This document shows, one piece after another, positions 43,655 through 56,670 of a stretch of DNA of 64,000 nucleotides. The stretch comes from a virus, in the IMG/VR virus record IMGVR_UViG_3300045253_000023, positions 32,001 to 96,000 of that record. The stretch is one strand, 5' to 3'. Every line of letters starts with the position of its first letter. Position 1 is the stretch's first letter. Made by a program: the position numbers and the translations under genes. The notes under the pieces were generated by a model that saw only the letters and a program-made list of their open reading frames with translations, did not search any database and was not told where the DNA came from.

Positions 43655-43723
43655 GCTGTTCTAGTGTAATGGAAGCACGCCCGAATGAAAGTCGGGAAGA
43701 TGGGTTCGAGTCCCAAATACAGA
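43655..43723 (+). pseudogene. Degenerate tRNA (GAA anticodon), weak acceptor, no CCA
   Basis: D arm, CCCGA-ATGAAAG-TCGGG, TGGGTTCGAGTCCCA. Confidence 0.5.
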
Positions 43724-48625: not shown

Positions 48626-48711
48626 CGCGAGTTCGATCTCCGGGAGATCACTGGGCTCATAACCCAGGAGCCATAGTGCTCAAGCCTGTTCGACTCAGAG
48701 ACTCGCTACCA
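48626..48711 (+). tRNA. Initiator-like tRNA-Met(CAT) with long variable arm
   Basis: C1/U72 mismatch, CTGGG-CTCATAA-CCCAG, GAGC-CATAGT-GCTC extra arm, ACCA end. Confidence 0.7.
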
Positions 48712-49601: not shown

Positions 49602-49684
49602 GCGCCAATAGTCGAGGGTGCCTTCTAAGCATTCATCCGTAACTGGAACTGAAAATGCGGGTTCGAATCCTGCTTGGTGCTCCA
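49602..49684 (+). tRNA. Atypical D-armless tRNA-Arg(TCT)
   Basis: GCGCCAA/TTGGTGC-T-CCA; GGGTGC-CTTCTAA-GCATTC; canonical T arm. Confidence 0.7.
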
Positions 49685-49772
49685 AAAGATACAATGTGTC
49701 ATTGCCAATGAGCTCTCTTGTTGCTGGGACAAGGGATGACGACAATGCCACAAAGGCCCAGCAAGAATTTAT

Positions 49773-49847
49773 GGGTTAGTCGTCTAACGGCAAGATAGCA
49801 GCTTCCAACACTGCCTGATGAGGGTTCGAATCCTTCCTAGCCCGCCA
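49773..49847 (+). tRNA. tRNA-Trp(CCA)
   Basis: GGGTTAG/CTAGCCC-G-CCA; loop TTCCAAC. Confidence 0.8.
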
Positions 49848-49929
49848 ATTTATGTCTCATTGCGAAAGCTGAATTCTGGTGAATCGATGCCAGGAGATTC
49901 CCTTCAATGGGGAGATGGGACACGCCTAT

Positions 49930-50106
49930 ATGACAAACGAAGAAGCAATCGCAGCCAAGAGCGCGGAAGTTGAACATTACATTGGTGTCCTCAGCCGATA
50001 TGGAAGAGGGAGATGGTATGACATGGGTTGTCGTCATCTTGCTGAACTCCGTGAAGAGTTGAAGGCGCTACAAGATCAATGGCTAGGTGACAGAAAGGTT
50101 ATGTGA
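49930..50106 (+). CDS. Hypothetical protein (3' end overlaps tRNA-Cys)
   Basis: Short ORF. Confidence 0.35.
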   Translation: MTNEEAIAAKSAEVEHYIGVLSRYGRGRWYDMGCRHLAELREELKALQDQWLGDRKVM

Positions 50107-50155
50107 CGGCCTGCAAAACCGATACATGCTGGTTCGAATCCAGTCCTAGCTTCCA
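50081..50155 (+). tRNA. tRNA-Cys(GCA)
   Basis: GGCTAGG/CCTAGCT-T-CCA; loop CTGCAAA. Confidence 0.88.
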
Positions 50156-50179
50156 AATTCGACTATGTACCAACACAAT

Positions 50180-50257
50180 GCACCTATCTTCTAACTGGTC
50201 TAGGAACTCTGACTTTCAATCAGAACAATGTGGGTTCGAATCCCATTAGGTGTACCA
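50180..50257 (+). tRNA. tRNA-Glu(TTC)
   Basis: TCTGA-CTTTCAA-TCAGA. Confidence 0.9.
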
Positions 50258-50266
50258 AATTCAAAT

Positions 50267-50340
50267 GCGTCCGTAACTTAATGTAGAGGATCACCCTGTC
50301 ACGGTGGAAGGTGCGAGTTCAAGTCTCGTCGGGCGCGCCA
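50267..50340 (+). tRNA. tRNA-Asp(GTC)
   Basis: Loop CTGTCAC; GCCA end. Confidence 0.85.
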
Positions 50341-50348
50341 AGTTTTAT

Positions 50349-50423
50349 GGAGCCGTAAGCATCTGGTGAGGCTGCCGAGCTGTCTACTCGGTGAGGTGGG
50401 TTCGACTCCCATCGGTTCCGCCA
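50349..50423 (+). tRNA. tRNA-Asp(GTC)
   Basis: CCGAG-CTGTCTA-CTCGG; GCCA end. Confidence 0.88.
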
Positions 50424-50624
50424 AATTGAAATTGGGTTACAATGGTGAGATAGGTCGCGCCTATTTCTGTTGTATCCTGTATTTCCGCGCAGTGCCCATC
50501 CTCGCGTTATAAGATCGACGGCACGAATATCGCTGGAGCGTAAATGTTGTCGTCGTTGGCAATCTACACTCAAGCAGGTTCCCGATTCAAAGGGATTAAA
50601 GCCAGGTTGGCGCCAATTTTACAT

Positions 50625-50696
50625 GGGGTGTCCGCAGGGGCGGAGACTGCACTTGCAATGCGATCGCGATGGGTTCGAGTCCCATACATTCCACCA
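50625..50696 (+). tRNA. tRNA-Ala(TGC), divergent
   Basis: G3:U70; loop CTTGCAA; ACCA end. Confidence 0.8.
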
Positions 50697-50704
50697 ATTC
50701 AAAT

Positions 50705-50785
50705 GCCGTAGTAACCCGCGTGTCTACGAAACACGACTCAGGTAACTGGAGGAAGATGCAGGTTCGAATCCTGTCTGCGGCTCCA
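50705..50785 (+). tRNA. Atypical D-armless tRNA-Arg(ACG)
   Basis: GCCGTAG/CTGCGGC-T-CCA; CGTGT-CTACGAA-ACACG; canonical T arm. Confidence 0.7.
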
Positions 50786-53179: not shown

Positions 53180-53264
53180 GGGTTGTTGGCAGAGTGGTTA
53201 TGCACCAGACTCTTAATCTGTGACGGAAACGTCAATCTGGGTTCGATTCCCAGGCGACCCACCA
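53180..53264 (+). tRNA. tRNA-Lys(CTT) with long variable arm
   Basis: Loop CTCTTAA followed by GACG-GAAA-CGTC arm. Confidence 0.82.
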
Positions 53265-56593: not shown

Positions 56594-56670
56594 GCGTCTG
56601 TAGCTTAACTGGACAGAGACTCTGGCTTCGAACCAGAGGGGTGTGGGTTCGACTCCTGCCAGGCGCGCCA
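56594..56670 (+). tRNA. tRNA-Arg(TCG)
   Basis: TCTGG-CTTCGAA-CCAGA; GCCA end. Confidence 0.9.

What the first reader, a model, noticed from the sequence alone, without database searches (positions are those of the whole stretch)
49602..50785. Two tRNA-Arg genes with no D arm and a D-loop-like motif moved 3' of the anticodon arm
Seen: Arg(TCT) at 49602-49684 and Arg(ACG) at 50705-50785 both have a 7-bp acceptor, U73-CCA, a canonical T arm and only about 7 nt between acceptor and anticodon arm. Both have a ~22-nt variable region containing GTAACTGGA, the same string as the D loop of ordinary tRNAs here (for example 57807). Known: ArgRS reads A20 in the D loop. Inference: an alternative topology rebuilds the elbow from the variable region. 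Two isoacceptors with the same design argue against simple decay.
Basis: partly seen in the sequence, partly recalled or inferred. Interest (0 to 1): 0.75.

Follow-up and report, generated by a model that had tools for sequence, protein, structure and literature searches.

The report
Two rewired phage arginine tRNAs
Two genes in this phage's tRNA cluster very probably encode working arginine tRNAs whose D-arm parts are strung in a different order from the textbook cloverleaf, a design shared by many phages, missed by a standard tRNA finder, and found in no paper I could search.

Summary
Windows 49602-49684 (anticodon UCU) and 50705-50785 (ACG) have a 7-bp acceptor, U73-CCA, a canonical T arm and a normal Arg anticodon arm. 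Only 8 and 7 nt separate acceptor from anticodon arm, and a 22-23 nt stretch holding UAACUGGA follows it. ARAGORN misses both; Rfam tRNA scores them just above its cut-off.

They are not decayed and not truly D-armless. An exact-pattern scan gave 66 distinct sequences of this design, all with Arg anticodons, 58 from viral contigs. In these the 5' linker pairs with the bases just before UAACUGGA, with compensatory changes. In the UCU subtype the linker also pairs with the bases just after it, and the window's gene carries a compensatory U-A there.

I predicted that the motif's second purine acts as nucleotide 15 and the last base before the T stem as nucleotide 48. This held: A with U in 66 of 66, G with C or G in 10 of 10.

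Best reading (about 0.7): functional tRNA-Arg with segments 10-21 and 22-45 swapped, keeping the L-shape core and the ArgRS determinant A20. Expression and charging are untested.

This scan has noted the same family before on other genomes. I found no paper describing it.

The parts
49602..49684 (+). Rewired tRNA-Arg(UCU), subtype B (8-nt linker), with encoded CCA
   Evidence: Rfam RF00005 29.7 bits. Family model R1 59.3 bits against at most 30 bits for canonical tRNAs. ARAGORN misses it.
49609..49612 (+). Helix H1, 5' strand (TAGT). It pairs with 49648-49651 (ACTG), which lies directly after the D-loop-like motif.
   Evidence: 100% paired in 14 sequences. The two inner pairs show changes on both sides. 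The window's U-A replaces the usual C-G.
49613..49614 (+). Helix H2, 5' strand (CG). It pairs with 49638-49639 (CG), which lies directly before the motif.
   Evidence: C-G is invariant, and G-C changes to A-U once. The same helix covaries in subtype A.
49617..49633 (+). Anticodon arm, loop CTTCTAA, anticodon TCT at 49624-49626
   Evidence: All five stem pairs covary across the family.
49640..49647 (+). D-loop-like motif TAACTGGA (inferred equivalents of A14, A15, C16, U17, G18, G19, A20)
   Evidence: The same string sits in the D loop of the canonical Arg(UCG) at 56605-56612. Covariation of positions 15 and 48 supports the assignment.
49652..49656 (+). Linker AAAAT. The final AT is invariant in the family (inferred A21 and U48).
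   Evidence: AT in all 52 subtype A sequences. In subtype B the final T is invariant with A15.
49657..49673 (+). Canonical T arm (GCGGG / TTCGAAT / CCTGC)
50705..50785 (+). Rewired tRNA-Arg(ACG), subtype A (7-nt linker), with encoded CCA
   Evidence: Rfam RF00005 33.1 bits. R1 85.3 bits. ARAGORN misses it.
50715..50718 (+). Rewired D-stem, 5' strand (CCCG). C50715-G50742 and C50716-G50741 are the core pairs. G50718-C50737 is a tentative further pair.
   Evidence: pair 11-39 is C-G in 52 of 52. Pair 12-38 is CG 38, GC 11, UA 2, with 1 unpaired. Pair 14-34 is CG 22, GC 6, UG 1, with 21 unpaired and 2 gapped, so it is tentative.
50719..50735 (+). Anticodon arm, loop CTACGAA, anticodon ACG at 50726-50728 (A34 would be deaminated to inosine by TadA; inferred)
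50741..50750 (+). Rewired D-stem 3' strand (GG) followed by the D-loop-like motif TAACTGGA (50743-50750)
50751..50757 (+). Linker GGAAGAT ending in the invariant AT (inferred A21, U48)
50758..50774 (+). Canonical T arm (GCAGG / TTCGAAT / CCTGT)

Best explanation
Both genes encode functional arginine tRNAs with a non-cloverleaf chain order. After U8-A9 the chain does not enter a D hairpin. It runs straight down as one strand of a short D-stem-like helix into the anticodon arm. After the anticodon arm it climbs back as the other strand of that helix. It then forms the D-loop sequence UAACUGGA, passes through a short linker ending in A-U, and enters the T arm. In cloverleaf numbering the order is roughly 1-9, 22-43, (44-45), 10-21, 48-76.

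This keeps the parts that build the L-shape: the GG that docks on the T loop, the 15-48 pair, and probably U8-A14-A21. It also keeps what ArgRS reads: A20, C35 and G/U36.

The ACG gene (subtype A) has only the helix before the motif. The UCU gene (subtype B) also pairs linker positions 9-11 with the three bases after the motif, so its D loop is closed on both sides.

Shown here: the secondary-structure pairings, the 15-48 covariation, the restriction to Arg anticodons, and the tRNA-like gene context. Inferred: the 3D fold, charging by host ArgRS, A34-to-I editing, and decoding of CGU/CGC/CGA and AGA.
For: 1. Family. This gave 66 distinct sequences of the design, and every one has an Arg anticodon: ACG, TCT, TCG or CCT. 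U8-A9 is invariant, 59 of 66 encode CCA, and every stem shows compensatory changes.

2. Long-range helices.
- In subtype A, pair 12-38 is CG 38, GC 11, UA 2, with 1 unpaired. Pair 11-39 is C-G in 52 of 52.
- In subtype B, H1 is 100% paired, with G-C changing to A-U or C-G and C-G changing to U-A or A-U. The window's UCU gene carries the U-A variant.
- The rival local hairpin is only 48.6% paired, has no double-sided change, and breaks when column 38 changes.

3. A prediction tested. If the motif is a D loop, its second purine should covary with the base before the T stem.
- With A at that position, the base before the T stem is U in 66 of 66.
- With G (a separate scan), it is C in 7 and G in 3 of 10, never U.
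- Seven of the ten G variants have an A/U sequence as nearest neighbour, each a different one. This argues for several independent switches.
- R15-Y48 pairs, and G15-G48 in E. coli tRNA-Cys, are the known Levitt pair types (PMC9976931).

4. Identity. A20, C35 and U/G36 define bacterial Arg identity, and U73 is also listed among determinants (PMC9976931). This phage's canonical Arg(UCG) has the same UAACUGGA in its D loop.

5. Context.
- The genes lie 7-9 nt from neighbouring tRNAs. They share the neighbours' leader ending (…AAT) and encoded CCA.
- This genome has only two members, at 85.3 and 59.3 bits against at most 30 bits for its other tRNAs.
- ARAGORN finds no canonical Arg(ACG) or Arg(UCU) gene in it.
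- CGC, CGT and CGA make up 79% of the phage's Arg codons, and AGA 12%.
- Across 98 viral copies, a canonical Arg tRNA with the same anticodon sits in the same locus in only 6.

6. Plausibility. [quoted passage not shown]
Against: - There are no expression, processing, modification or charging data for any member.
- No close relative of this phage was found, so conservation at this locus could not be followed.
- In ACG-type members the rewired stem has only two firm pairs. The third position is mostly C·A or A·A.
- In subtype B the extra helix H1 makes the 3D equivalence to a canonical core less obvious.
- Single-sequence folding gives no support either way: z is about -1, and for the ACG gene the minimum-energy fold prefers a local hairpin.
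- Bacterial genomes that carry a copy in a tRNA array also have an ordinary tRNA-Arg(UCU) elsewhere. No genome is therefore shown to depend on the design.
- T5-like phages keep a relative without an anticodon arm. Not every member can decode.
- The family set was gathered with fixed motifs, so the invariance of those motifs is by construction.
Confidence: 0.72

Rival explanations
1. They are conserved tRNA-like RNAs that do not decode. They could act as decoys or sponges for a host factor that recognises tRNA-Arg, such as an anticodon nuclease or ArgRS, or as regulators.
For: tRNA-targeting defences and phage counter-tRNAs are well documented (PMC10264068, PMC12409363). T5-like phages keep a family relative that has lost the anticodon arm but retains acceptor, T arm, motif and H2. 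No genome is shown to depend on the design.
Against: Four different Arg anticodons occur, each in a perfect 7-nt loop. They are usually complementary to the canonical Arg tRNAs of the same array. Encoded CCA, a 12-bp acceptor/T branch, and the 15-48 and identity nucleotides are all kept. That is more than a decoy of the anticodon loop would need.
Confidence: 0.15
2. They are truly D-armless tRNAs with an independent long variable arm, and have no long-range D-stem.
For: For the window's ACG gene the minimum-energy fold has a local hairpin in the variable region. In ACG-type members the long-range helix has only two firm pairs.
Against: Across 52 sequences the local hairpin is 48.6% paired with no double-sided change. 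The long-range pair 12-38 stays paired through C-G, G-C and U-A. Helix H1 in subtype B covaries.
Confidence: 0.08
3. They are decaying tRNA pseudogenes.
For: Gene finders reject them and Rfam scores are marginal. The same array holds other odd tRNA-like genes.
Against: The same architecture recurs in 66 distinct sequences from many unrelated contigs. Compensatory changes occur in every helix, loops are invariant, and only Arg anticodons appear.
Confidence: 0.03

Closest known systems
Canonical class I bacterial and phage tRNA-Arg (Rfam RF00005), e.g. this phage's own tRNA-Arg(UCG) at 56594-56670
   Same: 7-bp acceptor, discriminator and CCA. T arm with TTCGAAT. Anticodon loops CUACGAA and CUUCUAA. 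The D-loop string UAACUGGA with G18, G19 and A20. A 15-48 pair.
   Different: The D hairpin between positions 9 and 26 is absent. The D-stem is made of strands on either side of the anticodon arm, and the D loop lies 3' of that arm. No 4-5 nt variable loop is present.
Mitochondrial D-armless tRNAs, e.g. mammalian mt-tRNA-Ser(AGY) (PMC4394434, PMC7609411)
   Same: A short connector replaces a D hairpin between acceptor and anticodon stem.
   Different: The mitochondrial forms have lost the D loop and the D/T-loop contact, and they rely on adapted partners. Here the GG motif, a canonical T loop and the 15-48 pair are kept, and a D-stem is rebuilt.
Engineered 'mini HisT', a D-arm-less tRNA that works in E. 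coli (PMC11551756)
   Same: It shows that bacterial EF-Tu and the ribosome tolerate a missing D hairpin.
   Different: It is artificial and has no relocated D loop. That paper states that all known bacterial tRNAs are cloverleaves.
allo-tRNAs and (8/4) tRNA-Ser/His of bacteria and phages (PMC5389517)
   Same: Natural non-standard tRNAs found in phage and bacterial tRNA clusters by metagenome mining.
   Different: Those keep the cloverleaf order of arms and change only stem lengths (8/4, 9/3). Here the order of segments is changed.
Circularly permuted tRNA genes of the red alga Cyanidioschyzon merolae
   Same: The gene-level order of tRNA segments differs from the cloverleaf.
   Different: There the 3' half precedes the 5' half, and processing restores a normal tRNA. 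Here the acceptor strands are in normal order. Only internal segments are swapped, and no simple processing could restore the cloverleaf.

Membership tests
tRNA (Rfam RF00005) | Score at or above the curated gathering threshold (29 bits) | tested here: met
   29.7 bits (UCU gene) and 33.1 bits (ACG gene), both full length 1-71. This is marginal.
tRNA (canonical cloverleaf) | 7-bp acceptor stem, discriminator, 5-bp T stem and 7-nt T loop | tested here: met
   Acceptor and T stems are 100% and 99.6-100% paired across the family, with compensatory changes.
tRNA (canonical cloverleaf) | 5-bp anticodon stem with a 7-nt loop, U33 and purine 37 | tested here: met
   Loops CTTCTAA and CTACGAA. The stems covary.
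tRNA (canonical cloverleaf) | D hairpin (stem 10-13/22-25 enclosing the D loop) between position 9 and the anticodon arm | tested here: not met
   Only 8 and 7 nt lie between acceptor and anticodon stem. Infernal deletes the 15 D-arm positions.
tRNA-Arg identity (bacterial) | C35 and U/G36 in the anticodon | tested here: met
   Anticodons UCU and ACG. Identity rules from PMC9976931.
tRNA-Arg identity (bacterial) | A20 in the D loop, presented to ArgRS | tested here: inconclusive
   An A directly follows the GG in UAACUGGA, as in the canonical Arg(UCG) here. That it occupies the position-20 pocket in 3D is inferred, not shown.
tRNA-Arg (function) | Aminoacylation with arginine and use on the ribosome | not testable with these tools
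   No expression or charging data are available.
Class II tRNAs (long variable arm) | Self-contained hairpin in the variable region, alongside a normal D arm | tested here: not met
   The local hairpin is 48.6% paired with no compensatory change. There is no D hairpin.
Mitochondrial-type D-armless tRNA | Loss of the D loop and of the D-loop/T-loop interaction | tested here: not met
   The GG-containing D-loop motif and a canonical T loop are conserved. Positions 15 and 48 covary.
Rewired (segment-swapped) phage tRNA-Arg family, defined here by model R1 | High score to R1, clearly above canonical tRNAs | tested here: met
   85.3 and 59.3 bits against at most 30.1 bits for the other tRNAs of the genome. 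The ACG gene was in the training alignment; the UCU gene was not.
Rewired (segment-swapped) phage tRNA-Arg family | The 5' linker pairs with the bases flanking UAACUGGA, and the linker before the T stem ends in A-U | tested here: met
   UCU gene: TAGT/ACTG and CG/CG. ACG gene: CC/GG. Both end in AT.

The most novel reading that the evidence does not exclude
These are working tRNAs with a chain topology not described for any tRNA: two internal segments are swapped while the L-shape core is kept. On the boldest reading, phages maintain this rewiring because it stays compatible with ArgRS, EF-Tu and the ribosome while escaping host enzymes that recognise the canonical D-arm and variable-loop layout. 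Such enzymes would include tRNA-targeting defence nucleases or decay pathways.
Probability: 0.2. Interest if true: 0.9.

Novelty: new variant of a known kind. Interest (0 to 1): 0.8.

Why it matters
The cloverleaf is treated as universal for bacterial and phage tRNAs. A 2024 paper states that all known bacterial tRNAs adopt it (PMC11551756). A natural, widespread tRNA family that keeps the L-shape contacts with a different chain order would have four consequences.
- It would show that the fold, not the connectivity, is what is selected.
- It would give a natural test case for how ArgRS, RNase P, modification enzymes, EF-Tu and the ribosome read shape.
- It would explain missing Arg tRNAs in phage annotations, since ARAGORN called 2 of 98 copies.
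- It would offer a new scaffold for orthogonal tRNA design.

The question is directly testable, because cultured phages carry members. Examples are Xanthomonas phage XacN1 (confirmed with model R1), and Microbacterium phage Pumpernickel and Pseudomonas phage PA11 (candidates from partial BLAST matches only).

Tried and rejected
- **Close relatives of this phage.** DNA similarity to 50,697 phage records found only generic tRNA matches. Searches of viral contigs with a neighbouring 167-aa protein and with the major head protein found nothing. The head protein is at most about 46% identical to any cultured phage, which are distant T4-like phages. Conservation at the same locus could therefore not be followed.
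- **Single-sequence folding.** This was uninformative. z-scores were -1.2 and -1.0, and even the canonical Arg(UCG) does not fold as a cloverleaf by minimum energy.
- **Local variable-arm hairpin.** Rejected on covariation.
- **Sole-isoacceptor test.** I asked whether any bacterial genome relies on a rewired copy as its only tRNA-Arg(UCU). None does. The five genomes checked each carry one rewired copy, four of them inside 18-25-gene tRNA arrays, and ordinary UCU genes elsewhere.
- **H1-like pairing in subtype A.** Pairing between U8-A9-N10 and the post-motif bases is not general (by eye).
- **Literature.** Seven full-text searches and targeted reading of PMC5389517, PMC7609411, PMC8421152 and PMC11551756 found no description of this architecture. 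Most subscription-journal papers are not in the library, so an older description, for example in the T5 tRNA literature, cannot be excluded.

Full report
**Setting.** The window is bases 32001-96000 of a 161,561-bp virus record with direct terminal repeats.
- It encodes a terminase, tail sheath, major head protein, DNA polymerase and ribonucleotide reductase.
- Its head protein is at most about 46% identical to those of distant T4-like phages, such as Desulfovibrio phage 7757, Pelagibacter phage HTVC008M and Caulobacter phage Cr30.
- A tRNA region runs from about 43.5 to 58.6 kb, with a few further genes downstream. ARAGORN finds 31 tRNAs in the window and 37 in the genome.

**The observation.**
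- ARAGORN misses both genes.
- Rfam's tRNA model matches both end to end, at 29.7 and 33.1 bits against a cut-off of 29. The alignment shows the 15 D-arm positions replaced by 4-5 nt and a 19-20 nt insertion after the anticodon arm.
- GTAACTGGA also sits in the D loop of the Ile(UAU) gene.
- More tellingly, TAACTGGA sits in the D loop of this phage's ordinary tRNA-Arg(UCG).

**A family, not two oddities.**
- I scanned viral contigs for the motif followed within 4-18 nt by the T-loop string, a spacing impossible in a cloverleaf.
- The same scan of bacterial genomes returned mostly ordinary class II tRNAs, plus a few true members inside tRNA arrays.
- Parsing gave 66 distinct sequences of the same design, 58 viral and 8 from bacterial assemblies.
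- All 66 have Arg anticodons (ACG, TCT, TCG, CCT) in regular 7-nt loops. U8-A9 is invariant, A-U before the T stem is invariant, and 59 of 66 encode CCA.
- ARAGORN called 2 of the 98 viral copies.
- Members also occur, unannotated, in cultured phages. Xanthomonas phage XacN1 is confirmed by the family model at 68.7 bits. Microbacterium phages Pumpernickel and Zooman and Pseudomonas phage PA11 and its relatives gave only partial (49-55%) unannotated BLAST matches and are candidates.

**Secondary structure.** Two subtypes exist, and the window has one of each.

*Subtype A* (7-nt linker; the ACG gene):
- Linker positions 11 and 12 pair with the two bases directly before UAACUGGA.
- Pair 11-39 is C-G in 52 of 52. 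Pair 12-38 is C-G 38, G-C 11, U-A 2, with 1 unpaired.
- A third pair is Watson-Crick in UCU-type members but C·A or A·A in most ACG-type members.
- A further pair between the last linker base and the second base after the anticodon stem is tentative: CG 22, GC 6, UG 1, unpaired 21, gapped 2.

*Subtype B* (8-nt linker; the UCU gene):
- It has the same helix before the motif (CG/CG, once CA/UG).
- It also has a helix H1 between linker positions 8-11 and the four bases directly after the motif.
- H1 is 100% paired in 14 sequences. Changes on both sides occur at the two inner pairs (AGC/GCU, AAC/GUU, ACA/UGU).
- The window's own gene shows AGU/ACU.

*The rival structure*, a self-contained hairpin in the 'variable region', is 48.6% paired, shows no change on both sides, and breaks exactly when column 38 changes. 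The RNA is therefore not D-armless. A D-stem is rebuilt from strands that lie on either side of the anticodon arm.

**A test of the tertiary model.**
- The polarity of the rebuilt helix matches a normal D-stem. The strand entering the anticodon stem runs like 22-25. The strand leaving it runs like 10-13 and is followed by the D-loop string, as in a normal tRNA.
- This predicts that the second purine of the motif is nucleotide 15. It also predicts that the invariant A-U before the T stem is A21-U48.
- The Levitt pair is R15-Y48, so a G at 15 should come with C at 48.
- A new scan for the G variant of the motif gave 10 distinct family members. Seven have C, three have G and none has U at that place.
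- All 66 A-variants have U.
- G15-G48 is itself a known Levitt variant, in E. coli tRNA-Cys (PMC9976931).
- The G variants occur in both subtypes and with five anticodons. Seven of the ten have a different A/U sequence as nearest neighbour outside the tested positions. This points to several independent paired switches rather than one inherited change.

**Function.**
- PMC9976931 gives A20, C35 and U/G36 as the bacterial arginine identity set, with A20 the strongest determinant for E. coli ArgRS. It also lists U73. The rewired genes keep GGA, C35 and G/U36.
- The two window genes lie 7-9 nt from neighbouring tRNA genes. They share the neighbours' leader ending and encoded CCA.
- A covariance model of the family (R1) finds only these two members in the genome, at 85.3 and 59.3 bits. 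The best other tRNA scores 30.1 bits.
- ARAGORN finds no ordinary Arg(ACG) or Arg(UCU) gene in the genome. It does find Arg(UCG), and an odd Arg(CCU) is described below.
- In long plus-strand ORFs, CGC, CGT and CGA make up 79% of Arg codons and AGA 12%. The two genes therefore cover the phage's main Arg codons.
- In other phages, an ordinary Arg tRNA with the same anticodon sits in the same locus in only 6 of 98 cases. Other Arg anticodons are often supplied by ordinary genes.

Together this makes a working, ArgRS-charged decoder the best reading. No step of expression, processing, editing or charging has been observed.

**Limits.**
- No near relative of this phage was found.
- In bacteria the copies sit in accessory tRNA gene arrays (18-25 genes in four of the five genomes checked), and those genomes also have ordinary Arg(UCU) genes. 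No genome is shown to depend on the design.
- T5-like phages carry a relative whose anticodon arm is replaced by a 10-nt loop. Some members must be remnants or must do something else.
- The geometry of subtype B, with H1 stacked above the motif, is not obviously that of a normal core.
- The family was collected with fixed motifs, so their invariance is by construction. The covarying positions lie outside those motifs.

**Novelty.** Seven full-text searches and four targeted readings found no description of this architecture. The library lacks most subscription journals. This scan's own notes record the same family on other genomes, with the same reading and likewise no paper. I had reached the swapped-order model before reading those notes. 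The 15-48 test is my own.

Noticed in passing
window 62235-62307 (+): A fourth Arg tRNA, anticodon CCU, with A73-CCA. Rfam tRNA gives 38.9 bits, but ARAGORN misses it. The 7-bp acceptor runs straight into a 3-bp D stem (CCA/TGG), with no nucleotides 8-9. The D loop ATAGGAA keeps GGA.
   Followed up: partly
window 50625-50696 (+): A tRNA-Ala(UGC)-like gene 8 nt upstream of the ACG gene, with a G3·U70 pair and A73-CCA. Its D region (CCGC-AGGG-GCGG) starts directly after the acceptor. Rfam gives only 20.1 bits and ARAGORN finds nothing.
   Followed up: partly
window 57807-57901 (+); also L122 4827-4918, L135 2559-2649, L152 6336-6425: A 95-nt tRNA-Ile(UAU) with a normal D arm and an extra hairpin after the anticodon arm. 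Long Ile(UAU) genes of about 90 nt accompany the rewired Arg gene in the bacterial tRNA arrays too.
   Followed up: no
window 58859-58992 (+) and 59070-60476 (+): A weak Y-RNA-like match (YrlA, 24.9 bits against a cut-off of 69) with T-arm-like and D-arm-like modules separated by about 72 nt. It lies just upstream of a 468-aa protein with DUF2828 and DUF7788 domains (PHROG 850, 'RNA-binding protein'). This may be a Ro/Y-RNA-like pair.
   Followed up: partly
L240 570-641 (Escherichia phage KookSpook, annotated tRNA-OTHER), with over 300 T5-like records matching: A relative of the rewired family that keeps the acceptor, T arm, UAACUGG motif and a CGG/CCG helix. A 10-nt loop stands where the anticodon arm should be, and there is no CCA. 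It cannot decode. R1 gives 41 bits.
   Followed up: partly
window 48627-48707, 43656-43723, 53180-53264 (+): Further atypical ARAGORN calls. One is an 81-nt Met(CAU)-like gene with a 3-bp T stem and no CCA. One is a 68-nt Phe(GAA)-like gene with a mismatched acceptor (Rfam 28.7 bits, below the cut-off). One is an 85-nt Lys(CUU) with a long variable arm.
   Followed up: no
L122, L152, L167, L179, L229, L236 (Blastocatellia MAGs), L182 (Chthonomonadales MAG), L135 (Bacteroidetes MAG): Rewired Arg genes sit among tRNA genes in bacterial assemblies, mostly arrays of 15-25 tRNA genes within 8 kb (L182 shows only four). In L122 the rewired gene exactly fills the gap between Thr(CGU) and Ile(UAU). 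Whether these arrays are prophage-borne was not examined.
   Followed up: partly
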